NCBI GenBank assembly: GCA_044892505.1 | Contig: CM097883.1 | Span: 286,006,001-286,070,000 of the forward strand | Length of the DNA: 64,000 nucleotides | Direction of reading: 5' to 3' | Source of the DNA: Schmidtea nova | Taxonomy: Eukaryota | In this document: positions 16,669 to 37,116 of the stretch, piece after piece | How the letters are laid out: every line of letters begins with the position of its first letter | Position numbering within the stretch: the first letter of the stretch is position 1 | Notes under the pieces: generated by a model | Told to the model about the DNA's origin: nothing | Database searches by the model: none | The model's input: the letters and a program-made list of their open reading frames with translations, nothing else | Made by a program: the position numbers and the translations under genes

Positions 16669-16806
16669 CCTGAACCCTGTACATAGGGCAGTGGATCTTA
16701 GTTTATTTTAATAATTTTCTTATCCTGATTGCTGTATATAGCACAGGCGTAACTAAATAAAATGCATTATGAAATAAATGTATCTGATCGCTGTACATAG
16801 CGACAG
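16669..16806 (+). other. Three bulged stem-loops with GTA(C/T)AT loop
   Basis: CTG-AA-CCCT-GTACAT-AGGG-CAG; CCTG-AT-TGCT-GTATAT-AGCA-CAGG; CTG-A-TCGCT-GTACAT-AGCGA-CAG; counterparts at 10398-10551. Confidence 0.7.
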
Positions 16807-16934
16807 TGTTGAAAGTGTAATAGGTAAATCATTTTCTCTTCCTGAATTCGCAATTAATGATTGTCGAAAGTATGAGAATCGTTCAAAGCAAGACTGCCAA
16901 TTTCATGTTAATAAACCATTTTGAATTTTAGAAA

Positions 16935-17525: not shown

Positions 17526-18124
17526 AACTTCTGTGATTTAGTATTTTCGCTTATTAAATAATTTTTGTTTGTATTTATTTTATGGTAAAGTATAGAAAAT
17601 AGAGTGATTTATTAAAAAATTTAAAATAATTTAAAGGAAAATATAGAATAAATTAACTATACATTAGAATTAACAATAAGATTAACATAAATCTAATAAA
17701 CAATAGAAGCATTTAAGAGATAATAAATTGTAATTGATGAAGGATTATTTGTTGATATTGTAAAGAAGGGGGCTGAAAGAAAAGTAGAGAGTTGAAATAT
17801 ATTGTAGAGAAAGGGGGCTAAAGAGACATTGAAATGAAAGATAATGGATGCGGATAGATTAAAGTTAAAGCGTAAGTCCTTCTATCGGCAGCGAGACGAA
17901 CCCGTGAACATAAATGGGGAGTAGTTTTAGCAATAGAGCTCACCTGCCCATCATTGTTCAGACACCTTGCACTTTTCCAACTCGATTATTACAGGGAAAT
18001 GATCGAGGGTGCTCGTGTGATATGTAAGCATTTTATGTGAGGTTTTGGATGGAGGAATCCCTAGAGCGTTTTGTTTAATTTACTATTTTTGTTTTAACCC
18101 AATCCGAAACCAACAACATAAATT

Positions 18125-18142
18125 TGGGGGCTCAGCCGGGAT
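18125..18142 (+). promoter_or_regulatory. Primer-binding site, tRNA-Pro type
   Basis: TGGGGGCTCAGCCGGGAT 6 nt after the LTR end; resembles the canonical tRNA-Pro PBS TGGGGGCTCGTCCGGGAT. Confidence 0.85.
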
Positions 18143-18514
18143 GAAAATGGTTTTTGTGCGAAAAGTGAATCCAATAATAACCAGGAGTTTTAAAATGCCC
18201 CTCAACCGAAAATTTAATTGATTTTGTGATTAGAAGTGAAAACAATATCAACAGAGAATTTTTAAAGAAACAATGAGTGAATAAATATAACAACAGACGA
18301 TTAAAAATTGATATTAAAATAAAATAAATAAACACAAATAAATATGTCGGGACGACAATTTGATGAAACAGGGAGAGGTTTAACAACGGAAAACGAAATG
18401 TACCACTACTTTTGACCAACACAAATCGAACAAATAGAGAAACAAGATGTTGAAATTTTTAATTTTTATACCAAATAAAGCAGCAATCATATTAACAATA
18501 TCAATTATTTAGCA

Positions 18515-18976
18515 ATGAACGACAAATTAAAGGAAACAGAGGAATTCCTAAACACGGAAAACAAAACATACGATGAATTATGCGAGAAAATAAGTCGAAT
18601 AAGAGAATCCGGATTCAAAGAACCCATGACACAAACTGAAGAGACAACAGAGCTGATAAAAATAATGGAAAGAGTAGACAAAATAGATATAACTACTAGA
18701 TATAAATGGTACCGAACGAGATTAGAAAATGCTGATGTAAACATAAAATGCAGACAGTTAGAGCAACAATTAACTCCAACATACAACAAGTGGACAATAC
18801 AAGGAACTGAGACAGCTAAGAAATTTAAACTGTGTTACATATGTCGAGAAAGGGAGAATAAAATCATGTTTTTACCTTGTGGACATTTTCGGTTTTGTGG
18901 AATCTGTGCAGCCAACTGCGACAAATGCCCGATGTGCAATCTCGAAATAGACGAAAGAATTACTGTGTATTTATAA
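18515..18976 (+). CDS. Coiled-coil + IAP-type C3HC4 RING protein (no BIR)
   Basis: C-terminal CYIC...FLPCGH..CGICA...CPMC...ITVYL matches IAP/MDM2-type RING ends. Confidence 0.85.
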   Translation: MNDKLKETEEFLNTENKTYDELCEKISRIRESGFKEPMTQTEETTELIKIMERVDKIDITTRYKWYRTRLENADVNIKCRQLEQQLTPTYNKWTIQGTETAKKFKLCYICRERENKIMFLPCGHFRFCGICAANCDKCPMCNLEIDERITVYL

Positions 18977-20338: not shown

Positions 20339-20339
20339 C

Positions 20340-20590: not shown

Positions 20591-21226
20591 AGTGAGCATT
20601 AGAGTTTGAGTAATAAAAGTAAAGATGATTAAGTAAACTAGAGATTCAGTATGCATACGAGTAGAAATAGGAATAAGAGAAATTAGAGTTGACCGGAAAA
20701 ACCGGTAGAAATAGTGAGAATAATGAATAATGATGAGAAATTAGAGATGACTGGAAAATTTGATAGGAATAGTGAGAATAGTGAGTAATGATGATATAAT
20801 GAATAGTGATAAAATGATAATTGAGTCAGGAGAACTCAAGGGAATTAAAGCGTTTGAGCGACAAATTAAATTGGGAGACTGAGGGAAAAGTAACGAATTT
20901 ATTGGATAACGATAGATAATTATTACGACCATATAGATAATTGTTACCAGTGAATAGATAATTTAAATAGACTTAAATAAAGGGGAAACCGGGAATGGGG
21001 AAACAATGGAAACCCAATAATGAGGAATAAAAGCGCAACGATAACAATGATGTATCGTTGAAGTGACTTTTTAATTTAGATATACGGAACAGAACAAGTC
21101 AAAACAACCAACCAATCAATCAGAATACGATAACAGAGAAACAGAAAAATTGATAAATTAAAGAAAAGTAAACCGAGATCAAGAGCAGTTAAAAATCAAG
21201 AAGTTAATAATTCACAAAGAAATAAA

Positions 21227-24200
21227 TTGAGATCAAGAGCAGTTAGTGCTACAATCGAAAAAGTTGATAATTCACAGAGAAATAAATCGAAACAAAGAGC
21301 AACCAGTGCTACAAAGAAAACAAATCCTAAAGGAAGCAAATCAAGAAGAGTAATAGTAGAAAAGTCAAAAATCGAAAACAGTAAATTAACAAAAACTAAC
21401 GAAAGTGAAACAGAAGAAAGTGCAAGTGAAACCTACGATAATTATAATAATACGGAAGCATCAGATAACGAGTCAATAAACACAGAAGAAGTAGAAGCAG
21501 AAATTGATAATAATTCAAACGAAACGAATAACGAGCATACTAGTGAAACAAGAGGAAACGAGAGTAAAACGACACAAGACAGCGGAATCGAAATAAACGA
21601 ACATAAAGAGGAAATTAAAGATAAATTTACTGGAGAACCATTCAATGGAGATGCCAGCAAGTTAGAAACGTTTTTAAAAGAATTTGGTATATTTGTAGAA
21701 GTGTGTAAATGGAAACCAGAAACGATAAGGAGCAGAATTCAGTTATATTTAAAAGACAGTGCGTTAGACTTATATTTAGAAGCTAAAAATTCGGATGATC
21801 AACTCGATAGTTGGGAAAAGATAAAGAATTTTTTCCAGCAAACGTTTGGAATAAATAAAGTATTAAATGAAGCATTTACAGAATTTTCAATGAGGAAGCA
21901 GAAAGTTAATGAATCAAATGCAGTATATGCAAGTGAATTAAAGAAATTGGCTAAATTAGCATTTAATCAAAATAGTCCAATGAGTCCAGAATTAATGGCA
22001 GCAATTTTTGTGGGGGGATTGAGAAGACCCTATATAAGAGCACAAGTTGGATGCCAAGGTTGTAAAACAATAGATGAAGCGTTGGAAATCGCCAACAGAT
22101 TTGAATTACATATGATCGGAAGTGAAGGAAGAATTTACCTAGCAATGGATACGACACAAAACGAACAAGCAATAAAGATAAATAACCATATTCCGAATTC
22201 ACAGCAATTAAACCGACCACCACCTCAAAGGAGAAATGAGGGAAACAAAATACAAAATTACAGAAACCAAAATAATTATAGTACGCAAGGACAAACAAAG
22301 CAATGTCAAACCTGTGGAAAGTTAGGACATTGGCAACAAGAATGTTTCGCGAATTTAAATTGTAAAAAGTGTGGAAGAAAAGGACATTCGGAAAGTAGAT
22401 GTTACCTGAATTCATGTTATAACTGTGGACAACCAGGTCATATGGCAAAGAATTGCCAACAACAAAACAACCAGCAAAGGAATTGGTCGAACAACGGAAA
22501 TCGACAAAATTATACGAATCAACAGAGTAACGGAAACCGTCAGAATTTTGAAAATCAACAGAGTAATTATAACCAGAATAAAAGTACCACCAAGGAAATA
22601 CATTTATTACAAGAAGTTCAGAGATTGACAGAGTTAATAAATAATACACCGAGAGGAAATCAACAAACGAATCAACAACAAATGAATATGATGAGAAAAG
22701 TGGAAAGTGAAAATGAACGACTAAATCGAGAAAGTCAAGCACGACATGCTCAAGAATGGGCAAGAATACAAAGAGAAGACGAACAGAAACGACAAGAAAG
22801 AGAACGACAACCATTGAGAATTAATATGATGAGAGCAACGAATCAAACAAGAGATAACAAAGAAGATATCGAACCAGAAACAAACCAGATAAACCCAAAT
22901 CCGGAAGATGAAGAAAACCAAAAAGAAATAGTACAAGAAAACGAAGAAGTTATTGAACAAAAAATGATGTTGGTAGTCATGCCAAACGATCATGTATTTC
23001 GATTTGAATATGATGAAAAAGAGGAAGTAGGAGTATTAATTAATAAAGTAAACAAGACGATTCCGGGAATGACGAAACTACCCCGAGAAGCATTTTTACA
23101 GACAGAAGACGAAGCAGCAATAAAATTGAAACCAACCGACATATGGAAAGATTTAGGAGTACCAATGAATAAAATGAAAGTCACAGTTATCCAAGAAATA
23201 GAAGAAAATAACGATGAAGAGAAATCAAAACCAGTAACAAAAGTCAAAAGTAGAGCATTGAAGATATTTGAAGAGAAAATCAAACAGAGAAAAGCGATGG
23301 AGATAGAGAAACGAAGAGGCCAAATAGAAGAACCAAAAAATAATGACAAAAAAGAAGAGATACCACCAAAAAATGTACCAGATAAAGTAGAACAGACAGC
23401 ACATATAAACATGTTAAGAAACTTAACTAGAGAATTTTCAGATGTAGAAAGTGACAGTGATGTCAGTAGTTTAGCAGGAGATATGCTAAAAGAACCAGAA
23501 AATGAAGACAACAAGATAGAAGTAGCGAAGACGCCAGAAAATATACAAATTAAAGAAGATGAAATTCAGAAACTATTAGATAATGCGTTAGAAGTGATTT
23601 ATAACGAAGAATTTATTGATAAGAAGCGATATCGAAAATTTATAAGAGCAGTATTCCGAATGAACTATAAAGAACGATTACAAAGTCGTGAAATAGAGAT
23701 ATTATCAGGATACGTCGTCAAACTATTAGATGAACCACTCCATGAATACATAATTTTAATAGAAATAAACGAATGTTCACCAAGAATTTGGATCAAATCT
23801 CCATGCACGAACGAAATTTATCGATGGGTAGAAGACAGATTAGGAAGTTCGTATAAAAACAAATTTATATATTCAGGAAATGAACTTGTAAGACGAGCAA
23901 CGCATTTGGTAGAAACAGGCATATGGCCAGGAGAGATAACAACATTATCAATATGCGACAATAAGAAAGAGGAGAATTTACAAGAAATCGCAAAGGAAGC
24001 AAATATGTGTTTTGAGATGAGAATTAAACCTCAGTTAGTAGAAAGGAAAGAAAGAATTCTCAGAGAAAATTTAAATTCACTAATAGAACAAATTATTCAA
24101 CAAATCGACAAGAATAGAGAAGAATTAACGAAAACTGAATATGAGAAATTAAAACAATGCATCGAAAATATACGAGATACCAGCCATACGAGACATTCGT

Positions 24201-27200
24201 CATACAAGACTTGGAAAGTGATCGCAAAAATGGGAAAAGCGATGTTTAAACGAGGAGAAATAGGAGATTTAAAAATCAAAGTGAAATTACCAAACGAAGA
24301 CACAAAAGAAATTGAAGTAATCGCGGATTGCACAATAGAAGAATTAGTTGATGTTATCAATGAGACTTTATTACAACGGGAAAAAGAAGACGAATTAGAA
24401 GACGATATCATCATAAAATATAATGAACACGTACTAGGAGATCATGATGAGAGACGATTATATAAAATCGGTATATGGGATAATCACCAAACAATTCACG
24501 TTATCAGAATGGATGATACGTCAAGAGAAACACCAAAAGACGAAAAAAGGAGACAAGAACGTCGAAGAGAAGCGATGCACAAACTAAGACAAATAATAGA
24601 AATTTATCGAAGATGGCAGATACAGCCAGAATGGGAAAATGTATTAGGAGAATTAAACTTCAACGAACGCCGATTAACACCAGTAGAGAAACACTGGGAT
24701 GTTAAAGAGAAATGCTGGAAAGCAAAAGGAGGTATATATGAAGAGGAATTTAGACCAGAAATGGAAGATAGATATGAACCAGAAATCAGAAGAATTTGTA
24801 TGGTAACAAGAAAAGTCATGCCAACAGATTTGGATGGACCAGAAACCGCAGCAATATGGTTAGAAACGCAAAGACGAAAAGCTGACGAACTTATTGAATT
24901 ACTAAAAGGAAATGTACAAGGAAAAAGGCGAACGATCAAAGGATTAGCCGAATTCTTTGTAGCAGGCGGCGAAGATATAATCAGTTTAAGAAAAGTAGCA
25001 AAGGCAGTAACAGAATATAAACGAGTTAACGAGTGGTGCCCAGAACAATTAGACAATATAATCAAGAAATGGAGAAACCAAGAAAACGCCCAAGAACCAC
25101 CGCAGAAAATACATTTAAGGATAATATATCCAGATCGAGAAAAAGAAGAGCTTTGGGTAAGATTAACTGAAAAGATTCGAGATGTTAAAAAGAGATTAAA
25201 ATATGAACCACCATTTCATCTACAACATCAAGGACGATCACTAGAAAACGATATGGAAATTTTGATAACGCCAGCACAGTTAGAACTGGCAAATACGTTA
25301 ACAGTAGACGCAATAGCAGGTCAACCATTAAAACTTAAAGAGAAAAGAATAAAAGAAAGTGGAGATACTCAGAATCTAAGGAAGACGATGCAGATAAAAC
25401 CAGGAACAAGCGCAAGGCAGTACGAAACAACATCAATTAAAATCCAAGAAAGAACTCGACCACAACCATACGATACAGAAGAAATATTAACAGACAGCGA
25501 TGATATGCTAGAAGAATTAACCAATTTGACAAAAGAAAAAGGCAATAATATTTTCGAAAGAGTACAAGAGTTACCCACAACGTCACAAGCAATCAATACC
25601 CAAGATGAAGTTGAGCAAGAAATAGAAATAGAAGAAGTGAACGAAATCTCTGAAGAAGAAGCAAGAGGAGCAAATACAGAAAACGAACGATTTACACAAG
25701 AAATGGAAAAATGGTGGGAACAGAGAAATAATGAACCAAGAGATGTTACAGAAGAAACTGGACGAGAAACCAGATTAATTGAAACAGGTACAACAATGGA
25801 TAGACGACCTAGGCGTAGACCAAAGACAGATCCAACCAACATAATCAACAAAACAAAAGAAGAAAGGAGACAAGAGAAATGGGAAGTATGTTTAAAGAAA
25901 CTCAACAAAATAGCAGAAGCGAAAGACCAAGAAATAACGCAAAAATGTCAAGGCGAAGGATGGATATCAAAAACACTAATGGAAATATTGGCGATAATTG
26001 ATCCAGAATTGAAAAAATGGTGGAGAATAAACGAAATAAGCGACAAGGCTAAAGCATTACATAGCGCAATCGCACCAATCTTACCCGAACTGATAAAAGA
26101 GAAGACAAAATCAAGCCATTTAGATTGGCAAGGGACCACAACGTTGATAAAGAGGTTAACTGAAGATGCAGAAAATGATAATAAATATGTGATAGCAATT
26201 GCGTATACAATTTATAACTTATTAACATTGAGTAGAGGTAATCCAAAATCCACAGCAATAGAGAAGCACATCAAAAATACAGCAAATATCATAGCAAAAG
26301 AAATAGAACCATACGTCATCAGTAAAGGAGGATGGGAAACATTTGCTAAAACGAATCAAAGAAACAGTCAAGCAAAGAATATGAAAAAGAAATTTGAAGA
26401 AATTTTAGGAGAATTAGAAAAAGAAAAGTCAGGAACAGGAAGTGGAAAATCTTCACTAAACCTGAATTCAATCATAATGATGATATTAATATGGCTAATT
26501 AGCGTTGAAGGAGCAACGGCGTTCGAAGTATTTGATTGCGACCAGGTGGCATTAGGAGAAAAATATTCATTAAGAGGAACCGAACAATGCAAAGATGCAA
26601 CTCCAACAGAATTAAAAGTATTACATAGTAAACAAATATATCACGTATATCAGGAAGCCGACTTAATAAAGACAACAGTTAATGAATGTAAAATATATAA
26701 AACAAGATTTGCTTTTTATTGTGGACATCGCCACTACTCTGCAATCGTAATGCCAGGAACGGAAAGGGAAGCGATAATGTTACAAGGAGAAGATTGCAAT
26801 AAATTGTTCAAACATGGAGAAGTCGAAACAAGAGATCGAATAAAGATAAGAGGAAAAGCTGGAGTAATACTACAACAAACTTATTATGTAGCAGGAGCTA
26901 TCACAGGAGGAGAAGGTTACTGTCAAGGAGCAACATATCCAATATTTGGAGTACCAGCAACTAACATGGTAGTGATCGACACATATACGGTAGAATTAAA
27001 AGCGTATGAAGCATATTTTGACCCAGCAACAGGAGAAATGAAGACGTTATCAATGTGCAAAATTGAAGCCAGTACTTGTCAAACCGGTATGTCAACTTTA
27101 ACATACATAGCAAAAGCAAATGAATGCCAATTACAATTATTAAAGGAAGCAGAGTTCGACGAGGTACAAGGAAAAATCTTTCAGGAAGAAGAGGATGATG

Positions 27201-27565
27201 AAGTAGCAAGAGGAAAACGTCTACAGGGGACAGTAAAAGGAGAGAAACCGTTCACAACTAAAGTACAAGAAAAAGAGGTGAGAATGAGAGAGACGCCAAC
27301 AGTATTGGTTACATCAAACGCAAATATAGGAATGAGGTTTGTAAAAGGAAAACCGGCATTAAAATGTGGTGTTTCTATGTTAGAAACAAATTATCCAGGT
27401 ATTTATGTATCAAGACAAGCAGCACCGAATGCAAAACCTAAGATAGATACTACAGACATCAGATTGCACGTATATTTAAATAACAAATTGGATTTTTATT
27501 TCATAAAGGCCAAGCATCAATGGAAAAAATATACTACGATCTCATTAACAACGACTGTATATTGA
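21227..27565 (+). CDS. Polyprotein part 1: Gag (CA + 3 CCHC) - Ubl-like modules - Bcl-2-like - signal peptide - N-half of glycoprotein
   Basis: 2112 codons; frame open from 21134, first in-frame ATG only at 21890; domains listed separately below. Confidence 0.9.
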   Translation: MRSRAVSATIEKVDNSQRNKSKQRATSATKKTNPKGSKSRRVIVEKSKIENSKLTKTNESETEESASETYDNYNNTEASDNESINTEEVEAEIDNNSNETNNEHTSETRGNESKTTQDSGIEINEHKEEIKDKFTGEPFNGDASKLETFLKEFGIFVEVCKWKPETIRSRIQLYLKDSALDLYLEAKNSDDQLDSWEKIKNFFQQTFGINKVLNEAFTEFSMRKQKVNESNAVYASELKKLAKLAFNQNSPMSPELMAAIFVGGLRRPYIRAQVGCQGCKTIDEALEIANRFELHMIGSEGRIYLAMDTTQNEQAIKINNHIPNSQQLNRPPPQRRNEGNKIQNYRNQNNYSTQGQTKQCQTCGKLGHWQQECFANLNCKKCGRKGHSESRCYLNSCYNCGQPGHMAKNCQQQNNQQRNWSNNGNRQNYTNQQSNGNRQNFENQQSNYNQNKSTTKEIHLLQEVQRLTELINNTPRGNQQTNQQQMNMMRKVESENERLNRESQARHAQEWARIQREDEQKRQERERQPLRINMMRATNQTRDNKEDIEPETNQINPNPEDEENQKEIVQENEEVIEQKMMLVVMPNDHVFRFEYDEKEEVGVLINKVNKTIPGMTKLPREAFLQTEDEAAIKLKPTDIWKDLGVPMNKMKVTVIQEIEENNDEEKSKPVTKVKSRALKIFEEKIKQRKAMEIEKRRGQIEEPKNNDKKEEIPPKNVPDKVEQTAHINMLRNLTREFSDVESDSDVSSLAGDMLKEPENEDNKIEVAKTPENIQIKEDEIQKLLDNALEVIYNEEFIDKKRYRKFIRAVFRMNYKERLQSREIEILSGYVVKLLDEPLHEYIILIEINECSPRIWIKSPCTNEIYRWVEDRLGSSYKNKFIYSGNELVRRATHLVETGIWPGEITTLSICDNKKEENLQEIAKEANMCFEMRIKPQLVERKERILRENLNSLIEQIIQQIDKNREELTKTEYEKLKQCIENIRDTSHTRHSSYKTWKVIAKMGKAMFKRGEIGDLKIKVKLPNEDTKEIEVIADCTIEELVDVINETLLQREKEDELEDDIIIKYNEHVLGDHDERRLYKIGIWDNHQTIHVIRMDDTSRETPKDEKRRQERRREAMHKLRQIIEIYRRWQIQPEWENVLGELNFNERRLTPVEKHWDVKEKCWKAKGGIYEEEFRPEMEDRYEPEIRRICMVTRKVMPTDLDGPETAAIWLETQRRKADELIELLKGNVQGKRRTIKGLAEFFVAGGEDIISLRKVAKAVTEYKRVNEWCPEQLDNIIKKWRNQENAQEPPQKIHLRIIYPDREKEELWVRLTEKIRDVKKRLKYEPPFHLQHQGRSLENDMEILITPAQLELANTLTVDAIAGQPLKLKEKRIKESGDTQNLRKTMQIKPGTSARQYETTSIKIQERTRPQPYDTEEILTDSDDMLEELTNLTKEKGNNIFERVQELPTTSQAINTQDEVEQEIEIEEVNEISEEEARGANTENERFTQEMEKWWEQRNNEPRDVTEETGRETRLIETGTTMDRRPRRRPKTDPTNIINKTKEERRQEKWEVCLKKLNKIAEAKDQEITQKCQGEGWISKTLMEILAIIDPELKKWWRINEISDKAKALHSAIAPILPELIKEKTKSSHLDWQGTTTLIKRLTEDAENDNKYVIAIAYTIYNLLTLSRGNPKSTAIEKHIKNTANIIAKEIEPYVISKGGWETFAKTNQRNSQAKNMKKKFEEILGELEKEKSGTGSGKSSLNLNSIIMMILIWLISVEGATAFEVFDCDQVALGEKYSLRGTEQCKDATPTELKVLHSKQIYHVYQEADLIKTTVNECKIYKTRFAFYCGHRHYSAIVMPGTEREAIMLQGEDCNKLFKHGEVETRDRIKIRGKAGVILQQTYYVAGAITGGEGYCQGATYPIFGVPATNMVVIDTYTVELKAYEAYFDPATGEMKTLSMCKIEASTCQTGMSTLTYIAKANECQLQLLKEAEFDEVQGKIFQEEEDDEVARGKRLQGTVKGEKPFTTKVQEKEVRMRETPTVLVTSNANIGMRFVKGKPALKCGVSMLETNYPGIYVSRQAAPNAKPKIDTTDIRLHVYLNNKLDFYFIKAKHQWKKYTTISLTTTVY
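21635..22456 (+). other. Ty3/gypsy-type Gag capsid and nucleocapsid
   Basis: PFNGDASKLETFLKEF...SWEKIKNFF...Q..NES...Y...L; three zinc knuckles CQTCGKLGHWQQEC, CKKCGRKGHSESRC, CYNCGQPGHMAKNC (22304-22456). Confidence 0.9.
22961..25315 (+). other. Up to four ubiquitin-like modules, three preceded by helical segments
   Basis: Clearest: LKIKVKLPNEDTKEIEVIADCTIEELVDVI...IIIKYNEHVL...LYKIGIWDNHQTIHVI (24269-24510); weaker at ~22961, ~23747, ~25109. Confidence 0.5.
25880..26350 (+). other. Bcl-2-like domain
   Basis: BH2-like EIEPYVISKGGWETFAK (cf. Bcl-xL HLEPWIQENGGWDTFVE), degenerate BH1-like LDWQGTTTLI, BH3-like ISKTLMEILAIID. Confidence 0.7.
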
Positions 27566-28400
27566 ACAGAGAAATATTAAAGACGAAACTAGCAGTAGCA
27601 ATTACAAACCCGGATAGTGCGATGCCATTACTACCACTTAACGAAGGTCATTTTGGAAGAGTAGTTGGAGAAGTTATGTATGTATATATATGCCAAAAGA
27701 CACAAGCAAACCTAGCAACAACGACCAGAATACGACAAGGACAATGTACCAACGAATTGGAAATTGAATATAAAGGGAAAATAAGATATGTACAACCAGT
27801 GACAAGAATCATTAACCCAGTTAGTTTTGAACCAAACCCTTTCAATTGCAGCAATGCATACGGACCATTATATCAGAAACCAGACGGGAATTGGGTCATG
27901 TTTCCGTCAAGATCAGAAGTACAACCACCTAGAGAATTTGAATTGATGCAACTTTCAAAAGGACGAAAATTTTCCAATATAGATGTAAATAACGGAGGAA
28001 TTTACAGTGCAAAAGATCTTGAAGCAGCACGACAAAATATATTATTTCCAGCTAGAAGAGAAGCAGTATTATCTAGCATTGTAACGATAACAGGAGGAAC
28101 AAGTTACCAAGGAGGACCAAATTATGAATTATTATTGTCACCAGCACATTTTAGGAAAGCGACAGAAAATATGATGAAAGCAATGTGGGGACGATTTTTA
28201 ATTTTCGGACAAATGATGGCCGGAATATTAGGTGTAATTTTAATCATACAAATAATACGAGTGATAATCACACAAATGCTAGCATGTTTTGATATTTATA
28301 AAAGAGAAAAGAAAGTTAATTGGAAATTAATAGCAGGATTTTTACCATTTTTAGCAAAAACGATGGTGTTACATGGTCACTCCAAAGATATTCACAGAAT
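26468..28400 (+). other. Env-like glycoprotein of chuvirus G / herpes gB-like (class III) type, split by a -1 shift at ~27493
   Basis: Signal peptide SIIMMILIWLISVEGATA|FEVFDC, conserved Cys pattern (FDC, CKI..R..FYCG, YCQG, YLNNKL, DCILNREIL, GEVMYVYIC), furin-like RGKR (27209-27220), C-terminal W..FLIFG...AG TM helix. Confidence 0.75.
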
Positions 28401-30798
28401 AAAACGATTATTAAAAATACTGGCAAAAATGAAAGGAACAGATGAAGACGTGGGAAGAAAATTCAAAAAGATAATGACAGATGAACAAGCGAGATTACAA
28501 TTAAAAAGCGAAAGAAAAGGATTATGGGAAAGAATAAGAGGAGATAAAACTCAAGATGATTCCAGTGATGACGATGATAATAATGACGACTGTGAAGGAG
28601 GGCAAAGGTATAGAAACCAAGCACCGCAATATAGCGACAAGAATCCAACAGAAGCATGGAAATGTCACGCACCTCCACCAACAATGTACCAAGAACCATT
28701 ACAGGTATCAGGACACAGAGCAATGCAAATGATGCCAATGACAACTTTATATCCAATTATACCAGAAGATTATAAACTAAGGCGATGTAGAAGTATGGAT
28801 CCGCAAGACGATTCACTCACAATTGCAGTCATGTCATCAAATACAGGACCAGTATTAACCACAACCATAGAAATAAATGGAAAAGAAATAGAAGCGATGA
28901 TAGATACAGGAGCAAATATTTCGGCGATAGATATTAAATGGATATCGCAAGAACAGAGACAAGAAATTGAAAGAACAAATGTTCATGTAATAGCATGTAG
29001 TAAAGAAATAGTTGAAGTTGCAGGAAGATGGTGGGTGAAAATACGACACCAAAATAGAGAAATCGAAACCTATGTAGCAGTAATACCAGCTTTAAGTGTA
29101 CCATGTATAATCGGAACAGATTTAATGCCAACACTATTTAAAGAAATAATCATCGACCTTGGAACAATGAGATTAAAGGACAGAACAAGGAAAATAGGTG
29201 CCATGGAAGCAAAAATAATGATACCGGAAGAAAGAATCATGACGAGATCACAAACCATCAGAATAAATATGCTCAGAGCGGAAGAAATTAACACAACTAG
29301 TCAAGTAGAAAGTGAGAAAATCGATGTTGACAAAGAAATCGTACGAAAAGCCAAAGAAATAAACGAAAGATGGGAAATCAGACAAGAAAAAGACGTATTA
29401 TGGGATATACGACAAATAATCAGTGATTACGCACGAGGATGCCCAACCAAACCAATTATAATAGAATTACTAAAGAAAATACCAGAGATACTCTTATTAC
29501 AAGATACAGGAGGTGCAACTGCACTACACAATGCCATAAGTTGGGGTAAAACGGAAAAAGTAAAAGAATTTTTGAAAATAGCAAAAGAAACGAATCAAAA
29601 TCTAGACATTGTAAATCGAGAATTAGAAACGCCAATGATGACAGCAACACTAAAACTAGCAGACAAAGAAATAGTAGATATACTGATAAACGCAGAATTC
29701 AACTGGACAGCTCGGGATAGAAGAGGAAATACAGTTTTAGATCATGCAATAATGAGTGAAAATCAAATGATACTAAAACATATAACAACCAACCTCACAT
29801 GGGAAATCGATGAATTAATCAAAGGAGAAATTATGAAAGAAGCGATTCGGAAGGGAAACACTAAAACAATATGGAAACTAATACAATGGAAATGGCCGAA
29901 TAATAAAACATGGGTATTGGATATAAACAAAGAATTTAGCGAAGGACAGAATGCACTATTGAGATACTTATTAGAGTTTACGTGCGATCAGAGAACGATG
30001 TTAGCACTAATGAATAGAGGAAAAATAAATATTAGTAAAAACGAAGAGGAATATAAACTAGAAGTCGAAAAGAAAGCGTTATTCAGGAAAATTTGGATAT
30101 GGTGTCAAAAACAACTACGCAAAGACATAAGCTACAAAAATCTAAATGATTTCCAAGAAAAGTATAAAACGATAATAAAGGAATACAAGAAGCTAGTGGA
30201 GATATTAAACGATCCAGAAAAATTTAATCAAGCAATAAATCAGAAAGAAGAAGAAAGTAAAAGGATACTCACACCATTGTTCAACGCAAAGATAGATTAC
30301 CAAGAAAGATTAGATGCAATACACAAAAAAGCAAAGGAACTATTACCAGAATTCAAAAATACTAAATACGCCTTGGAAATACTAGGCGCGATAGTAGAAA
30401 AAGTACACGCGTACGCGAAAGGAATATATAATGGAAATGATATAATAACTATAAAAAGAGAAATGCCAGTTGCGTTTTTATTAACAAAAGAAAGAATAAT
30501 GCCGATTCATAGAGCATTGAGAGCAGGAAAAGACAGTAAAGTAATCGAAATCGCAAGAGTAATGCATCAATGTGGATGTGATATGAATATGATAGACGAA
30601 AAAGGAGACACCCTTATGGTATACGCAGCAAGAGCAAAAACAAAAATCAAAGTATTAGAAGAGTTATATAAAGCAGGCGCAGGATTAATCGGAAAAACTG
30701 TCAAAGACAACTCAATATTAGACGTGACATTATTAGGTCCAAACTGGGAAATGTTGAATTTCATTAAAACAATAACAAACCAAGAAGAGATTATTTAA
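27520..30798 (+). CDS. Polyprotein part 2: C-half of glycoprotein + TM - retropepsin - ankyrin repeats
   Basis: 1092 codons in the -1 frame relative to part 1; IEAMIDTGANISAI...IIGTD protease; two ankyrin clusters; no YxDD RT, RNase H or integrase motifs seen. Confidence 0.9.
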   Translation: MEKIYYDLINNDCILNREILKTKLAVAITNPDSAMPLLPLNEGHFGRVVGEVMYVYICQKTQANLATTTRIRQGQCTNELEIEYKGKIRYVQPVTRIINPVSFEPNPFNCSNAYGPLYQKPDGNWVMFPSRSEVQPPREFELMQLSKGRKFSNIDVNNGGIYSAKDLEAARQNILFPARREAVLSSIVTITGGTSYQGGPNYELLLSPAHFRKATENMMKAMWGRFLIFGQMMAGILGVILIIQIIRVIITQMLACFDIYKREKKVNWKLIAGFLPFLAKTMVLHGHSKDIHRIKRLLKILAKMKGTDEDVGRKFKKIMTDEQARLQLKSERKGLWERIRGDKTQDDSSDDDDNNDDCEGGQRYRNQAPQYSDKNPTEAWKCHAPPPTMYQEPLQVSGHRAMQMMPMTTLYPIIPEDYKLRRCRSMDPQDDSLTIAVMSSNTGPVLTTTIEINGKEIEAMIDTGANISAIDIKWISQEQRQEIERTNVHVIACSKEIVEVAGRWWVKIRHQNREIETYVAVIPALSVPCIIGTDLMPTLFKEIIIDLGTMRLKDRTRKIGAMEAKIMIPEERIMTRSQTIRINMLRAEEINTTSQVESEKIDVDKEIVRKAKEINERWEIRQEKDVLWDIRQIISDYARGCPTKPIIIELLKKIPEILLLQDTGGATALHNAISWGKTEKVKEFLKIAKETNQNLDIVNRELETPMMTATLKLADKEIVDILINAEFNWTARDRRGNTVLDHAIMSENQMILKHITTNLTWEIDELIKGEIMKEAIRKGNTKTIWKLIQWKWPNNKTWVLDINKEFSEGQNALLRYLLEFTCDQRTMLALMNRGKINISKNEEEYKLEVEKKALFRKIWIWCQKQLRKDISYKNLNDFQEKYKTIIKEYKKLVEILNDPEKFNQAINQKEEESKRILTPLFNAKIDYQERLDAIHKKAKELLPEFKNTKYALEILGAIVEKVHAYAKGIYNGNDIITIKREMPVAFLLTKERIMPIHRALRAGKDSKVIEIARVMHQCGCDMNMIDEKGDTLMVYAARAKTKIKVLEELYKAGAGLIGKTVKDNSILDVTLLGPNWEMLNFIKTITNQEEII
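28850..29180 (+). other. Retropepsin aspartic protease domain
   Basis: TIEINGKEIEAMIDTGANISAI (DTG at 28903) and CIIGTDL. Confidence 0.9.
29500..29790 (+). other. IkB-like ankyrin repeats (three)
   Basis: GATALHNAI...LDIVNRELETPMMTA...ARDRRGNTVLDHAI parallels IkB-alpha ANK1-3 (..LNFQNNLQQTPLHLA...RDFRGNTPLHLA). Confidence 0.7.
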
Positions 30799-30824
30799 CA
30801 GAAACTGTAAAAGGACCAAGCGTA

Positions 30825-31400
30825 TTGACAATGATGCAAAACATCAAATTGACAGAAGAAGTATTAAACTGGAAAATACCAAATACAAATAAACCAGCAT
30901 TTAAAGTTAACAAGTTTATGGAGAAAAATCGAAATTGGTGTATCCAAAGCGCACTAATAACTTATATATGGCCCGAAATTGTAGAAATTTTCATGAGAAG
31001 AGAAGACCTGAGATTTACAAACAAGCCTAAAGAAACGGAAAAGGTAGTCAAATGGAAAGAACTGATGAGAACACACCTCCAAAGTTGGATAAAAGCCAAG
31101 AAAGAAATTATACAGTATCAGTTAGACAAGAAAAAGATACCCGAAGATATAGAATACCAAGAATTCGAAGCAAGTAATTTAACATCACTATATTATGCAA
31201 AACTAATAGAAACAAGTAATGTCGAGGACGACATTTTTAACGAGCTAGGGAGAGATAATAATACTGACAAAGACGATGATGATAATAATGAAAACAATGA
31301 CGACGAGAGAAATAAAGACGATGATGAACAATCTAAAACAATCATGAAAAGAAAGGAACAAGTTACAGAAGGAATCCATTATTCAGACCAGAAGTATTAA
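30825..31400 (+). CDS. Probable polyprotein part 3 (ankyrin-like start, acidic tail)
   Basis: Frame open from 30768, overlapping the end of part 2 in the -1 frame; ETVKGPSVLTMM echoes the preceding repeat KTVKDNSILDVT; D/N-rich tail; its stop overlaps the next ATG (TAATG). Confidence 0.7.
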   Translation: MTMMQNIKLTEEVLNWKIPNTNKPAFKVNKFMEKNRNWCIQSALITYIWPEIVEIFMRREDLRFTNKPKETEKVVKWKELMRTHLQSWIKAKKEIIQYQLDKKKIPEDIEYQEFEASNLTSLYYAKLIETSNVEDDIFNELGRDNNTDKDDDDNNENNDDERNKDDDEQSKTIMKRKEQVTEGIHYSDQKY

Positions 31401-33364
31401 TGTTCGCAATAATCATAACGCTTATGGGACAATGTGAAGCAACGAAACAAGAGATATCAGTAGAAATGGAAGTACCAATACAAAAAGCATCAACACAAAT
31501 AATGAATTCAAAAGATATTGAACAAGTATGTTGGGTAAAAGAGAATGAAATTCTCGGAGATAACAACCTATTACGATGTATAATACCAAACCCCGAGCGA
31601 AAAACTATAATAATCGACGAAATGGATATGGAAACATGGTATAGAATATGTGTAATCAGAAAACCCAAAGACGCAGAATCACACAAAACAGTCACATGCC
31701 AAGTATACAAGACACCCAAAGTTCGATACGAGTTCGCCAATGGAATAGACCTTCCAGGACCATTTTATTTTAAAATAACAAGAGAACCAGCATCAAGAAA
31801 AGTCTTACAACAACCAAGAACCAAGATAAGAACACCAAGTATAAGGAATACAACGGATAAACCAGAAGCAAACAGAAGAAATACAACGGATAAACCAGAA
31901 CCAAAAAGACGAACGAAACAAACCACAAGAGTAATCTATAATTCCAAGTTGTTATGTATAGCACTTATTATGACAATACTGAAGCGATTGGAAGAAGGAA
32001 TAGAAATGGATACAATGACATTAATAGACATGGAAGAGACACGAATGACAAATCAAAAATGTTGGTTTAGAAACGATGAAAAATTAGAATTAAAGGAATC
32101 AAGAGAAATTCAGAAATTGGAAGCGAGTAAAACGAACAAAGTAATCAAGATAATAAAGATAAAAACAGACAGAATTCATAAACTATGTTTATTGGAAAAA
32201 GAGAGAAACAAGAAAGGAATAACCAATTGTAAAACATTCCAAGCAAGGAAAATAATAACGTTTGCAAGAAAAATGGGGAAAAGAAACAAACAGAATTTCC
32301 AGAAATTAACCATAACGTTAGAAATAACGGGAATAGAACAAAACGTAAACGGAGTATGCTGGAGAAAATACGAGAAAGAAACGAATAAACATAAATCATC
32401 ACAATGTCAAACAATCAGAGGAACAACCGCAGTACAAATAAAAAGCTTAGAAAGAAATCAAACGTACGAAATATGCCTAGTAAAGGAAAATGATCAAATA
32501 ACGAGAGAAGATTTAGAATGCAGAATATACAAAGCACCGAACAGAGTAAAAACCATTAAAGCAATACGAAAGAATAAAAGTCAACAAAAACCGAAGCATA
32601 ACACTACCGAAAGTCAAACAGAACCAGAGAGGAAAACCTCAGCAACACTTATACTGTGGAAATTGGATGACAAAACAGTGGAAATATGTTGGACAATGAT
32701 CAAGAAATACGAAGAAAGACAACCACAACAATGCGAAAAGATGAATAAAGAAGAGGGGATCAGAATTCAGAACCTACAATTGGACAAACAATACGAAATA
32801 TGCGCAATAGAGAAAGCAGACAAATTTGGAAACCAGCAAGAAAAATGTGGAAACTATTATACACCGACAAATACTATGATCAAAGGAAAAATCAAGAAAC
32901 TAACCTTCGGAGAATTGAATCAAACAACGAAACAAATAGAAAACGAGGAAGTAATAATAAATTCTTATGCCAAATGGAAACCAGAAAAAGTAATTCATGA
33001 AGTCAAAAGGAAACAACAAGAACGACAACAATTGGAACTCAAATTAAAAGGACAATATGGACCAATGATCAACCAAAGCAAATTCACCCAAATTAATATT
33101 AACAAGCAAAGAAGAGAACTAATTGGAGTAGGAATACTGGCAGTATGCGTACCAGTAATAATAATACTATCAATAATATGGCTATGGGACATAATAAAAA
33201 AGAAACCAACCAGACAATGGCCAGATATAAAGATTATGAATTGTAAAATCAAGATACCAGAAGAAGTGAAAAAAGAATTCCAAAGAAGAACCAAAGGCAA
33301 AGAATTTTGGAAGCAAATAGAAGACGAGGAGCGACACGATGAAAAAGCAGTGATGATAGTATAG
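31400..33364 (+). CDS. Type I membrane protein with four FN3-like Cys modules (654 aa)
   Basis: N-terminal hydrophobic leader, four repeats of CW...C...I..L....Y.IC....C, TM LIGVGILAVCVPVIIILSIIWLW, short cytoplasmic tail. Confidence 0.75.
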   Translation: MFAIIITLMGQCEATKQEISVEMEVPIQKASTQIMNSKDIEQVCWVKENEILGDNNLLRCIIPNPERKTIIIDEMDMETWYRICVIRKPKDAESHKTVTCQVYKTPKVRYEFANGIDLPGPFYFKITREPASRKVLQQPRTKIRTPSIRNTTDKPEANRRNTTDKPEPKRRTKQTTRVIYNSKLLCIALIMTILKRLEEGIEMDTMTLIDMEETRMTNQKCWFRNDEKLELKESREIQKLEASKTNKVIKIIKIKTDRIHKLCLLEKERNKKGITNCKTFQARKIITFARKMGKRNKQNFQKLTITLEITGIEQNVNGVCWRKYEKETNKHKSSQCQTIRGTTAVQIKSLERNQTYEICLVKENDQITREDLECRIYKAPNRVKTIKAIRKNKSQQKPKHNTTESQTEPERKTSATLILWKLDDKTVEICWTMIKKYEERQPQQCEKMNKEEGIRIQNLQLDKQYEICAIEKADKFGNQQEKCGNYYTPTNTMIKGKIKKLTFGELNQTTKQIENEEVIINSYAKWKPEKVIHEVKRKQQERQQLELKLKGQYGPMINQSKFTQININKQRRELIGVGILAVCVPVIIILSIIWLWDIIKKKPTRQWPDIKIMNCKIKIPEEVKKEFQRRTKGKEFWKQIEDEERHDEKAVMIV

Positions 33365-33739: not shown

Positions 33740-33913
33740 ATCAGAAGGTCAATGGCTAGATTGGGTAATAAATGGATTAGAGAATGGTATAGAACCAGAT
33801 TCAACGAGCGAACCATAGTCAAATTGTAGCGGAAAATTGTAGATATGTAAAAATAAAACTCTAGAAAAATCAAAACAAAGAACAAATCAATGTATGTATA
33901 TATTATTGTAGAA

Positions 33914-35269
33914 ATGGATAAAGAGGAACGAGCAGTCGAGATTTTGAGAGCAGCCAACAGAAATTGGAACAAGAGATTTGTATGTGGATATTGTAATAAT
34001 TTATTACGGAAACCAAAGCAAACCGCCTGTGGATGTAGATTATGCACTAGATGTGTACAAATGTTAGAGTTAAAAAGAATAACAGAATGTCCAGAATGTA
34101 AAGAAGGACAAATAGTATTAGACGAAACGAGACCAGATAGAGCAACTCAGAGAGAAATCATGAGCATATTAATTGAATGTATAAATCCACCGTGCATATG
34201 GCAAGGACAAATCAGCGAAATTGAAAATCATATAGAAAATTGTGAAGAAAAGAGAAGCGAATGTGAAAAGTGTAAAGAAACGATAATTTTAAAAGACAAA
34301 GAGAAACACAGAGATGAATGCAAAGAGGAAGAAATCGCATGTGAATATTGCGAAATTCGAGAAACAAGGAGAAAAATTGAAGAGGAGCACATCAATATAA
34401 AAGAAGAGAAAATATGCGAACAGTATGTAGGAGTGTGCCCAAACAAATGTGAAATTACCGAAGAAGTGAAATTACGAGAACATTGGGAAAAGTGTACAGA
34501 AATACCAAGAGAATGTCCTTACAACAGATATGGATGCAAGGAAAAGAAGTTTCAACAAAATATGAAACAACATTTAGAAACAGAAGCAATCAATCATATT
34601 GAAATGACAAACAGAACAATTCAGAAATTGGAAAAAGAAGTGGAATCTCATAAAATAATGATGAACCTATTATTAGAAACGAGAGAACAGTTTGAATTAA
34701 CCCGAGGAAGGATGGAAAAGAAAATAATAGCCATCAAGGAATTAGCAAAAGGAATGAAAGTGCAATATAACAAGTTAATACAAGAAATTGATGAGAAAAA
34801 AGATTTACCAATAGCACCGTATGTGTGGAAATTAACGGATTTCCGAAATAAATTGGAAGATGCACGAAGCTTCAAGAAAACTGCGGTACTAAGCCCACCA
34901 TTTTACTTATGGAAAAACGGGGCTAAAGTGAGATTGAAAGTATATCCAAACGGAGATGGGAAAAGTATGGGAAAACACCTATCAATATTTTTTGCGTTTT
35001 GCAAAGGAGAATATGACGATTTAATCGATTGGCCGATAGGAGTAGGAGTAATGATAAAAATCAGGGGTTTAAACGAAACCATAGAAAAGAGATTCACGAC
35101 AGAAAAAGGAGCAGTTACGAGTAACAGACCAACAGAAGAATGTGGATTAGCAAGTGGAGAACCACACTTTGTATTACAAAGCAAGATATGGGGATTATTG
35201 TATGAGGACACCTTATACATAGAAATGGAAAGGAATGAGAAGGCAGATAGAAAAGGATGGTTGGCGTAG
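33914..35269 (+). CDS. TRAF: Full-length TRAF-family protein (RING, TRAF zinc fingers, coiled coil, MATH)
   Basis: CGYC..LL..PKQTACGCRLC..C...CPEC; several CxxC..H..C fingers; YVWKLTDF...SPPFY...LKVYPNGDG..MGKHLSIFF..KGEYDDLIDWP. Likely start ATG 33914 after TTGTAG. Confidence 0.92.
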   Translation: MDKEERAVEILRAANRNWNKRFVCGYCNNLLRKPKQTACGCRLCTRCVQMLELKRITECPECKEGQIVLDETRPDRATQREIMSILIECINPPCIWQGQISEIENHIENCEEKRSECEKCKETIILKDKEKHRDECKEEEIACEYCEIRETRRKIEEEHINIKEEKICEQYVGVCPNKCEITEEVKLREHWEKCTEIPRECPYNRYGCKEKKFQQNMKQHLETEAINHIEMTNRTIQKLEKEVESHKIMMNLLLETREQFELTRGRMEKKIIAIKELAKGMKVQYNKLIQEIDEKKDLPIAPYVWKLTDFRNKLEDARSFKKTAVLSPPFYLWKNGAKVRLKVYPNGDGKSMGKHLSIFFAFCKGEYDDLIDWPIGVGVMIKIRGLNETIEKRFTTEKGAVTSNRPTEECGLASGEPHFVLQSKIWGLLYEDTLYIEMERNEKADRKGWLA

Positions 35270-35374
35270 CAAGAGAAAATGATCGTGTAAATAAACTGTA
35301 CAAAACAATATAAAATGATAAATAAACAAAAATAATAAAAGTAGTCTGATTGAAAATATTTGTAATTATAGAAA

Positions 35375-36478
35375 ATGGGAAACGTCGAAATCAGTTTACA
35401 AGAAGTTACCGCACATCAAGATGAAGTTATTTGTGAGCATTTAGAACAAATTGAAAGTTGGATCCACGCATATTACCACAAACAAAAAGAAGTAGAAAGA
35501 CAAGCCGAACAAATAACAGAAGCCAAAAGATTAAAGCGATTAAGTCAAGATAAAATAGACGAATTATATGAATTATTAGAGAAACAAAAAGAATATTATA
35601 AAAAGATGATGAAAGAACGACGAGAAGAAAGAGAACGAGAACGAACAGAAATGGAACGGAAAATGTACTCCATTACCGAGCAAGCAAGATATTGGAAAAA
35701 AGAAGCGAAAGAATCTTATACGAAAGCAAGAGAAATAATTGAAAGAACGGCGTACAGCGATGATTGGAAATTATTTGAAGAAATCGATAAATTAAAAGAG
35801 GAATTAGAACAGAAAACCTATCAGGAAATATCGAGCAAAAAATGGAATAAAAAGAGACAACAATTCATCAGAGAGCAAGCAGGAAAAATTAAACAACTTA
35901 TGCACCAGATTGAAAGGTCGGAAAGAGAATTATATTTCAGTAAACAACAATCAGATGCAAACCTCAGAGCAGGGATGCAGAAAGAGGAAGATATGAAGCG
36001 CGATATTAATGGTTATCAAGGAGTAATCACTCAAAAGAAGATAGAATTAAAGAAAACTAAAGAAAGATTAGAAGAAGCAAAACAAAGCTATGAAGAAAAT
36101 TTATTAAAATTAGAGGAAGCAAAACAAAGCTATGAGGAAAATTTATTAAATTTAACCAAAGAAAATGAAGAGTTGAAACAAAAACTGATACAAAAATTAA
36201 CACCACCAAAAGAGACAGATATCACCAAAGCAGTAATAAAAATGATGGAAGAGGAAGAGAAAAACAATAAAATAACAGAATTAGAAAAACAGATCGAAGC
36301 ATTAACAGAACAATCAAATTATTTAGAATACCTGTTAGACGAAGAAATTCAATTGTCACACTTCTATCGAGATGAAGTAACAATGTGGAGAAACACGATA
36401 GTATGGTTACCACTCCCTACGAATCAAGTGGAACCTCAAGATGAAGGTTTTCACGAACCCAATGAGTCGTTAGTTTAA
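35375..36478 (+). CDS. Long coiled-coil protein (367 aa)
   Basis: E/K/Q-rich heptads, internal duplication LEEAKQSYEENLL x2; TTATAG|AAA ATG. Confidence 0.8.
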   Translation: MGNVEISLQEVTAHQDEVICEHLEQIESWIHAYYHKQKEVERQAEQITEAKRLKRLSQDKIDELYELLEKQKEYYKKMMKERREERERERTEMERKMYSITEQARYWKKEAKESYTKAREIIERTAYSDDWKLFEEIDKLKEELEQKTYQEISSKKWNKKRQQFIREQAGKIKQLMHQIERSERELYFSKQQSDANLRAGMQKEEDMKRDINGYQGVITQKKIELKKTKERLEEAKQSYEENLLKLEEAKQSYEENLLNLTKENEELKQKLIQKLTPPKETDITKAVIKMMEEEEKNNKITELEKQIEALTEQSNYLEYLLDEEIQLSHFYRDEVTMWRNTIVWLPLPTNQVEPQDEGFHEPNESLV

Positions 36479-36552
36479 AGAGAAGCGAAAATTCTTTGTA
36501 AATATCTGTAACATAACAATGTCAAACTGTATTGACAAATTTGTAAAGTGAA

Positions 36553-37116
36553 ATGAAGAAGCTCGCAATACTGATAATCCTAAATGTAATCGAAATCACC
36601 CAACAAAGAGAAGACCGTCCGATATCAAAAGAAAATCTACAAGTCTTACCCGAGAAAATCTATAAAGAAATAGATGATCTATTAAAAGAAGCAACTAAAG
36701 AAATTTCTCAAATTCAATTGTCAACAGCACCTAAACCAGTATCAACGCAACAAACCCTGTGCAAAATCAATAACAAATTAGAGAAGATTCGAAAAACCTT
36801 AAAAGAAAGTAAAGAAACTATAAAGAATTTACATCGAGCAGAAATTCAATACCAAGAGAGATGGATCGTTGCGATTATAATCGTATTAACAATTAGTACA
36901 ACAACCTGCGCAATTACCATTCTCATCGCAGTATACAGAATAAAAGTTCTTAAACAAAAACAATCAATCATCAATCAAACAACAGCATATGATGACAATG
37001 CCCGAAGACAAATGAGAAATCAGTTCAACAGAATACGAACCCAATACGAGTTACCAGCAATTCCACAGAACCAGTCCAATCCAGTGCGAGTTATGAACTA
37101 TTTGTATAAACCATAA
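36553..37116 (+). CDS. Small type I membrane protein (187 aa)
   Basis: Leader MKKLAILIILNVI, helical ectodomain, TM WIVAIIIVLTISTTTCAITILIAVY. Confidence 0.7.
   Translation: MKKLAILIILNVIEITQQREDRPISKENLQVLPEKIYKEIDDLLKEATKEISQIQLSTAPKPVSTQQTLCKINNKLEKIRKTLKESKETIKNLHRAEIQYQERWIVAIIIVLTISTTTCAITILIAVYRIKVLKQKQSIINQTTAYDDNARRQMRNQFNRIRTQYELPAIPQNQSNPVRVMNYLYKP

What the first reader, a model, noticed from the sequence alone, without database searches (positions are those of the whole stretch)
26468..29180. Chuvirus/gB-like Env embedded between Gag and protease in one polyprotein
Seen: internal signal peptide, Cys-rich ectodomain, RGKR furin-like site, TM helix, then retropepsin in the same reading unit. 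Known: env of retroviruses and errantiviruses is a separate 3' gene; chuvirus-G/herpes-gB-like glycoproteins have been captured by BEL/Pao and nematode Cer elements. Inference: gag-env-pro order implies an alphavirus/flavivirus-like topology (cytosolic Gag, lumenal Env, cytosolic PR) with equimolar Gag:Env, in a gypsy-type backbone.
Basis: partly seen in the sequence, partly recalled or inferred. Interest (0 to 1): 0.85.

Follow-up and report, generated by a model that had tools for sequence, protein, structure and literature searches.

The report
Giant enveloped retrotransposon shedding whole modules
The envelope gene sitting inside the capsid-enzyme protein is real but already published for giant flatworm retrotransposons; what looks new is that this family circulates as four reshuffling versions (complete, enzyme-less like this copy, envelope-less, or lacking both) that likely share parts inside common particles.

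Summary
Observation confirmed, core idea already in print. The window holds a whole 24.8-kb Burro-type Ty3/gypsy element. Its Env lies between a Bcl-2-like stretch and the protease, matches the chuvirus-type fusion family (Pfam PF24664) and folds like herpes gB (class III). The window copy is frame-broken inside Env, but 30 of 43 sister copies read through. In-frame env between gag and pol was reported for Burro (PMC6431247), and gB-type GAG-ENV-POL elements for Schmidtea (PMC13524379). The RGKR 'furin site' is not conserved. New here: this copy has no RT, RNase H or integrase. Of 92 gag sites of its family, 39 lack pol, 8 lack env, 12 lack both, 5 are complete and 28 are unclassified. Both deletions are in frame and remove whole modules. 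All four forms inserted recently and are shuffled on gag and ankyrin trees. Env on pol-less copies shows purifying selection. Likely reading: forms are co-packaged and complement each other, so 'equimolar Gag:Env' holds per copy, not for the pool. Earlier scan notes on this genome also found Burro elements; none listed described this split.

The parts
15291..15294 (+). 4-bp target-site duplication, left (TTAT; right copy 40132-40135)
   Evidence: sequence
15295..18118 (+). 5' LTR (TG...CA, 2.8 kb), 99.86% identical to 3' LTR; carries a 197-codon ORF (16932-17525)
18125..18142 (+). primer-binding site (tRNA-Pro-like: assignment recalled, not tested); present in 26 of 28 LTR pairs checked and in family B
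18479..18976 (+). accessory ORF with C-terminal RING finger
   Evidence: Pfam zf-C3HC4_3 E 1.2e-11
21134..27565 (+). polyprotein, first piece: Gag, cargo, Bcl-2-like stretch, signal, Env N-half
21545..22460 (+). Gag capsid domain and three CCHC knuckles
   Evidence: Retrotrans_gag E 1.2e-5; zf-CCHC E 4.8e-10
23369..23382 (+). left breakpoint used by env-less sister copies (short homology to 28753-28766); not deleted in this copy
24254..24523 (+). ubiquitin-like stretch (weak)
   Evidence: Pfam OTU1_UBXL E 0.0045, Ubiquitin_4 E 0.06, both under cut-off
25901..26416 (+). Bcl-2-like stretch with BH2-like GGW word (weak here; reported for Burro)
   Evidence: 37 of 37 PDB hits are Bcl-xL, E 0.24-1.5; single-sequence fold failed
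26456..26521 (+). predicted internal signal peptide, A-T-A before the mature Env start at 26522
26522..28194 (+). Env ectodomain, class III gB/chuvirus-like; frame-broken near 27.49 kb in this copy
27209..27220 (+). RGKR in a low-confidence loop; present in 40 of 43 family-A copies, not conserved beyond
28195..28287 (+). predicted Env transmembrane helix, followed by basic residues
28321..28371 (+). conserved weaker hydrophobic segment, likely a surface helix rather than a second TM
   Evidence: KD 1.46 vs 2.65 for the TM, basic residues on both sides
27484..30798 (+). polyprotein, second piece: Env C-half, tail, protease, ankyrins
28861..29133 (+). retropepsin (DTG)
   Evidence: Pfam RVP E 3.4e-7
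29207..29219 (+). in-frame junction where about 3.03 kb holding RT, RNase H and integrase is missing
29479..30750 (+). ankyrin-repeat clusters
   Evidence: Pfam Ank_2 E 2.1e-12, two stretches
30768..33364 (+). polyprotein C-terminal part with three hydrophobic segments; separate frames here, same ORF in sister copies
33857..35269 (+). accessory TRAF-like ORF (zf-TRAF, MATH)
   Evidence: Pfam MATH_2 E 6e-20
35372..37116 (+). two further accessory ORFs (368 and 189 codons), no family above cut-off
37307..40131 (+). 3' LTR

Best explanation
The segment is the class III (gB/chuvirus-like) envelope module of a Burro-type giant Ty3/gypsy element, encoded in frame between Gag cargo and protease, and this copy belongs to a pol-less form that likely complements env-less sister forms in shared particles. 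Per copy (inferred): the polyprotein starts in the cytosol; the hydrophobic segment behind the Bcl-2-like stretch acts as an internal signal and is cut by signal peptidase at A-T-A; Env folds in the ER lumen; one TM returns the chain to the cytosol, where the protease frees itself and the downstream enzymes. The cut signal would be left as a tail anchor on the Bcl-2-like domain. Per family (shown): two in-frame deletions at short homologies remove either the cargo-Bcl-2-Env block (5.37 kb) or the RT-RNase H-integrase block (3.03 kb); all four combinations are present, recent and shuffled. Inferred: template switching between co-packaged RNAs makes the shuffle; most intact Env comes from pol-less copies and most intact Pol from env-less copies, which loosens the 1:1:1 ratio that a single ORF would impose.
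For: Fold: AF2 pLDDT 88.5, pTM 0.66; every PDB Foldseek row shown is herpesvirus gB, best E 3e-15; best viral-library hits are chu-like glycoproteins, E 7e-38, TM up to 0.63; VIA Z 11.0, 400 aligned, rmsd 7.4 to HSV-1 gB. Order; 9 of 17 scanned homologues carry this Env N-terminal to a protease in one chain. Signal-like segment before [YFW]DC in 13 of 15 proteins checked. Forms: 39 pol-less, 8 env-less, 12 double, 5 full, 28 unclassified of 92 gag sites; all 10 RT sites without an env site are env-less copies; 12 of 12 predicted double deletions confirmed; the env-less joint also stands in a public contig. Four env-junction sequence types each occur with and without pol. Class labels are no more clustered than shuffled labels on gag (24 changes vs 24.4) and ankyrin trees (23 vs 23.1). 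Median LTR mismatch: full 0.05% (n=4), env-less 0.07% (7), double 0.02% (8), pol-less 0.00% (9). Open frames over the stretches held: full 2 of 5, env-less 5-6 of 10, pol-less 16 of 39, double 6 of 12. Env in 39 pol-less copies: shared N/S 40/127 vs singleton 102/97 (p 1e-7); leaving out alleles seen in full copies 30/76 vs 101/96 (p 1.5e-4); no shared stop. Env dN/dS 0.084 between families A and B. 0 of 2,214 windows are closer to family B than A.
Against: No expression, particle, cleavage or fusion data. Free recombination means the purifying signal on pol-less env could come from full copies, including extinct ones; each full copy's nearest env neighbour is a pol-less copy. For env-less and double forms the class-specific selection tests are not significant (p 0.13-1). 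Complete copies still exist, and sister family B (88 RT sites, RT-RH 97% identical, same PBS) is almost all full length (86 of 100 listed env sites pair with RT; no recurring deletion in the 15 unpaired sites), so the split is not needed for success and B could supply enzymes. Many one-off deletions also exist. Topology rests on hydropathy; a second conserved hydrophobic segment scores 1.46 here and 1.67-1.85 in four homologues. The Bcl-2 assignment is weak in my tests. 28 of 92 gag sites are unclassified.
Confidence: 0.62

Rival explanations
1. The deleted forms are plain defective parasites. They ride on the few complete copies, keep their frame only because broken frames are degraded or poorly packaged, and supply nothing that matters.
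For: Complete copies exist (5 of 92); one-off deletions are common; recombination can carry selected env alleles onto pol-less copies; selection tests for env-less and double forms are not significant; 23 of 39 pol-less copies are broken.
Against: Missense changes, not only stops, are depleted among variants shared by pol-less copies and absent from full ones (30/76 vs 101/96). Only 2 of 5 full copies are open, against 5-6 env-less and 16 pol-less. Double deletions combine several junction types, which needs pol-less and env-less RNAs to meet.
Confidence: 0.27
2. Family A as a whole leans on family B for enzymes or particles, so the A-internal complementation is incidental.
For: B has 88 RT sites, the same PBS and 97% RT-RH identity.
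Against: No A/B chimeric window among 2,214 tested, while A forms recombine freely. About 20% DNA divergence could itself block switching, so this is not decisive.
Confidence: 0.07
3. The deleted forms are retrotransposed splice products, or Env is made from a separate spliced message.
For: A GT lies at the left env breakpoint and an AG near the right one (sequence).
Against: Junctions keep the GT or cross at CCAA or TACCAGA homologies, not at GT-AG; the pol junction has no acceptor AG.
Confidence: 0.04

Closest known systems
Burro / GYPSM1 giant gypsy-like elements of dugesiid planarians (PMC6431247, section 7 read whole; Grohme 2018 not held)
   Same: About 5,100-aa single ORF in complete copies (5,115-5,161 aa; paper: 4,873 and 5,140 aa); Gag with three CCHC; ubiquitin-like, Bcl-2-like, ankyrin and MATH/TRAF cargo; env in frame between BCL2 and PR; hits to mononegaviral fusion proteins.
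   Different: That paper links the env to gypsy Env and baculovirus/retrovirus/paramyxovirus fusion proteins; the fold here is gB-like class III. TRAF is a downstream accessory ORF here. The section read mentions no pol-less, env-less or double-deleted forms.
HSV/gB-type GAG-ENV-POL errantiviruses (PMC13524379; passages, and supplement rows in files 2, 3, 5-7)
   Same: gB-type Env, GAG-ENV-POL order, found in Platyhelminthes; six Schmidtea entries of 14.5-18 kb; furin site 'not always conserved'; a listed Schmidtea Env row is visibly alignable to this Env (by eye).
   Different: The passages seen do not name Burro, do not discuss one-ORF topology, and their search was built on intact elements with GAG, POL and ENV, so module-deleted forms would not be listed.
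Chuvirus-G-bearing BEL/Pao elements (PMC7642597; search listing only)
   Same: Same fusion family PF24664; one homologue has it behind DUF5641 (P0044).
   Different: Different superfamily; glycoprotein lies 3' of pol (recalled).
Non-autonomous partners in cereals: BARE2/BARE1, Angela, Sabrina/WHAM (PMC9744471; passages)
   Same: Elements lacking RT and integrase, or Gag, that depend on partners and exchange sequence by template switching.
   Different: There the non-autonomous forms are separate degenerate subfamilies or families. Here two reciprocal in-frame deletions segregate inside one recombining family and one of them concerns env.
Alphavirus/flavivirus/pestivirus polyproteins (recalled)
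   Same: Structural and enzyme modules in one chain threaded through the ER by internal signals.
   Different: Class II fusogens, no reverse transcription; analogy only.

Membership tests
Burro-type giant Ty3/gypsy element | LTR element of 25-30 kb with multi-kb LTRs, PBS, target-site duplication | tested here: met
   24.8 kb here (about 28 kb with pol), 2.8-kb LTRs, PBS, 4-bp TSD
Burro-type giant Ty3/gypsy element | single ORF of about 5,000 aa with Gag-CCHC ... env-PR-RT-RH-IN | tested here: met
   met in complete sister copies; the window copy itself lacks RT-RH-IN
Burro-type giant Ty3/gypsy element | ankyrin and MATH/TRAF cargo | tested here: met
Burro-type giant Ty3/gypsy element | Bcl-2-like and ubiquitin/SUMO-like cargo before env | tested here: inconclusive
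   weak hits only; fold failed; atlas did not complete
Burro-type giant Ty3/gypsy element | RT phylogeny or direct alignment with named Burro1-4 sequences | not tested
Burro-type giant Ty3/gypsy element | dUTPase-like stretch between PR and RT | tested here: inconclusive
   no Pfam hit in the 140 aa after PR of a pol-bearing copy; the paper used HHpred
Class III (gB-like) fusion protein | gB-like fold with long central helix and beta-rich domains | tested here: met
Class III (gB-like) fusion protein | conserved cysteines and two hairpin loops at the fusion domain | tested here: met
   11 cysteines at 90% or more in 105 rows; hairpin words aligned; naming them fusion loops is inferred
Class III (gB-like) fusion protein | trimer and membrane-fusion activity | not testable with these tools
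   monomer model only; no complex job sent
Furin-activated envelope | conserved RX[KR]R site | tested here: not met
   RGKI in family B; absent from the other Burro-like rows that cover the loop
Autonomous LTR retrotransposon (this copy) | RT, RNase H, integrase present and frame open | tested here: not met
   3.03-kb block missing and three frame breaks

The most novel reading that the evidence does not exclude
An enveloped retroelement is turning into a functionally bipartite system: a pol-less form supplies Gag and Env, an env-less form supplies Gag and enzymes, a doubly deleted form adds Gag, and module-sized deletions tune the protein ratio that a single giant ORF cannot, while complete copies dwindle.
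Probability: 0.3. Interest if true: 0.8.

Novelty: new variant of a known kind. Interest (0 to 1): 0.5.

Why it matters
The gene order itself teaches nothing new. The family structure might. Single-ORF elements face a fixed Gag:Env:Pol ratio, and this family offers a natural test of whether reciprocal deletion forms solve that, and of how segmented or helper-dependent genomes arise. The double deletions are a genomic record of RNAs meeting in one particle. A sister family that stays full length is a built-in control. The analysis also shows that surveys requiring intact gag, pol and env would miss most env-bearing copies of this family.

Tried and rejected
PDB sequence search with the Env N-half: 0 hits. 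No RNA holder listed for the region; the four runs laid are contigs of unknown kind from one study and say nothing on expression. Single-sequence fold of the Bcl-2-like stretch failed, pLDDT 41, and was not searched. Protein atlas unanswered five times. No tRNA gene in the window. Splicing as source of the deletions rejected on junction sequence. A recurring pol deletion in family B was sought in 14 env-only and 1 RT-only sites and not found; most are older diverged copies or carry one-off deletions. Furin cleavage as a required step rejected. Paper searches for this kind of split gave 0 papers (strict multi-term searches, so weak evidence; nematode single polyprotein) also 0; one search gave 6, one read in passages. 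Grohme 2018 and its supplement were not available and may describe Burro deletion variants. Rows dropped: L032 unclassified and L041 unclear (30 of 31 classified); 2 of 30 LTR pairs not recovered; one env-less copy missing from the gag tree and two full copies from the ankyrin tree for lack of coverage; LTR dating covered 5 of 5 full, 8 of 10 env-less, 8 of 12 double and 9 of 39 pol-less copies. No complex prediction was sent.

Full report
1. What is at the coordinates. ORF 21134-27565 runs from a Gag (Retrotrans_gag; three CCHC) through long cargo into a hydrophobic segment and the first half of a Cys-rich domain. ORF 27484-30798 holds the second half, a TM, a retropepsin and ankyrins. Both halves match PF24664 Monjiviricetes_fusion (E 2.4e-22, 5.7e-41). 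The whole lies in an LTR element, 15295-40131, with 2.8-kb LTRs 99.86% identical, a PBS and a 4-bp TSD. The frame break near 27.49 kb is peculiar to this copy: 10 of 11 other copies first fetched are open across Env into PR, and 30 of 43 in the wider set are open from the Bcl-2-like stretch to the TM. This copy has two more breaks downstream, near 30.8 and 31.3 kb.

2. Fold. I folded the unchanged Env of another natural copy with 105 aligned rows: pLDDT 88.5, pTM 0.66. Every PDB Foldseek row shown is herpesvirus gB (best E 3e-15, TM 0.2-0.4). The viral library ranks chu-like and related glycoproteins first (E 7e-38, TM up to 0.63). VIA-align gives Z 11.0 over 400 residues, rmsd 7.4, to post-fusion HSV-1 gB, with thogotovirus glycoproteins at Z about 6. 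So it is class III. RGKR sits in a low-confidence loop and is kept in 40 of 43 family copies, but the sister family reads RGKI and other relatives lack it. It is not a general requirement.

3. Topology (prediction). Between Gag and PR there are two clear hydrophobic peaks, the signal-like segment (KD 2.13) and the TM (2.65). A signal-like segment precedes [YFW]DC in 13 of 15 proteins checked, and 5 of those have a GGW-like word upstream. Two crossings put Gag and PR-Pol in the cytosol and Env in the lumen. A third, weaker conserved segment after the TM (1.46 here, up to 1.85 in homologues) has basic residues on both sides, which I read as a surface helix; this is the main uncertainty. If signal peptidase cuts at A-T-A, the leftover signal would anchor the Bcl-2-like domain as Bcl-2 proteins are anchored (inference; the Bcl-2 call is weak in my tests).

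4. What is known. [quoted passage not shown] PMC13524379 (passages; supplement rows) reports HSV/gB-type Env in GAG-ENV-POL order in Nematoda, Bryozoa and Platyhelminthes and lists six Schmidtea elements. 9 of 17 homologues scanned carry this Env ahead of a protease in one chain. The host is probably a planarian, inferred from this likeness only.

5. The window element has no RT, RNase H or integrase. Pol-bearing sisters have about 3.03 kb more at 29207-29219, holding RVT_1, RT_RNaseH, Integrase_H2C2 and rve; the deletion is in frame, giving ORFs near 4,118 instead of about 5,130 codons. Family-specific 30-mers gave 56 env sites and 16 RT sites; only 6 pair. All 10 unpaired RT sites are copies that lack 5.37 kb from 23.37 to 28.76 kb (cargo, Bcl-2-like stretch, Env), again in frame. 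Gag-to-ankyrin spacing over 92 gag sites gives 39 pol-less, 12 double-deleted, 8 env-less, 5 full and 28 unclassified; 12 of 12 double deletions were confirmed by sequence. Junctions lie at short homologies, not splice sites. The env-less joint also stands in one public contig.

6. Dynamics. All four forms inserted recently (median LTR mismatch 0.00-0.07%, 28 of 30 pairs recovered). Class labels are scattered over gag and ankyrin trees like shuffled labels, and four env-junction types each occur with and without pol although the two junctions are only about 460 bases apart. That needs repeated exchange between forms; template switching in shared particles is the simplest cause, DNA-level conversion is not excluded. 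Open frames over the stretches held: 2 of 5 full, 5-6 of 10 env-less, 16 of 39 pol-less, 6 of 12 double. Among pol-less copies, shared variants are depleted of amino-acid changes in Gag, cargo, Env, tail, PR and ankyrins; Env 40/127 vs 102/97 for singletons, and 30/76 vs 101/96 without alleles seen in full copies. Against this: recombination can import selected alleles, the same tests are not significant for env-less and double forms, singletons are themselves below the neutral ratio of 2.4-3.8, and sister family B (101 env, 88 RT sites) thrives almost wholly full length. No A/B chimera was found in 2,214 windows. Env dN/dS between A and B is 0.084, RT-RH 0.013, with dS near saturation.

7. 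Verdict. Shown: class III fold by prediction and search, in-frame order, four recent recombining forms, purifying signal on env. Inferred: ER topology, co-packaging, complementation, ratio tuning. Env-in-polyprotein: already known. The reciprocal module deletions in one enveloped family: not found in searches or in scan notes, but the primary Burro paper and its supplement could not be read. Nearest precedent seen is the looser autonomous/non-autonomous pairing in cereals (PMC9744471, passages). New variant of a known kind; interest 0.5.

Noticed in passing
window 31337-33364: C-terminal polyprotein part with a second signal-like segment, a mid hydrophobic segment and a strong TM; three segments do not give a simple in-out path, no Pfam family found. 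Possibly a second lumenal or surface protein.
   Followed up: partly
window 16932-17525 and 38944-39537: 197-codon ORF inside each LTR, kept in sister copies; a related ORF lies at 11309-11917 beside a 200-bp match to the LTR end (12146-12341), probably a solo LTR of another family.
   Followed up: no
window 19491-20530: 41- and 45-bp tandem arrays between the RING ORF and gag; length varies among copies.
   Followed up: no
window 18479-18976 and 33857-35269: RING-finger and TRAF-like accessory ORFs are kept in deleted forms too, so deleted copies may still deliver host-interfering cargo.
   Followed up: partly
window 21000-37000: Strong A-richness of the sense strand (AT skew up to +0.44).
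   Followed up: no
L095-L102: One-off internal deletions of many sizes in family A; only two deletions reached high frequency.
   Followed up: partly
P0007, P0008, P0009, P0010, P0018: Homologous polyproteins carry two or more protease-like domains after Env.
   Followed up: no
window 43383-43525: Run of N, outside the element.
   Followed up: no
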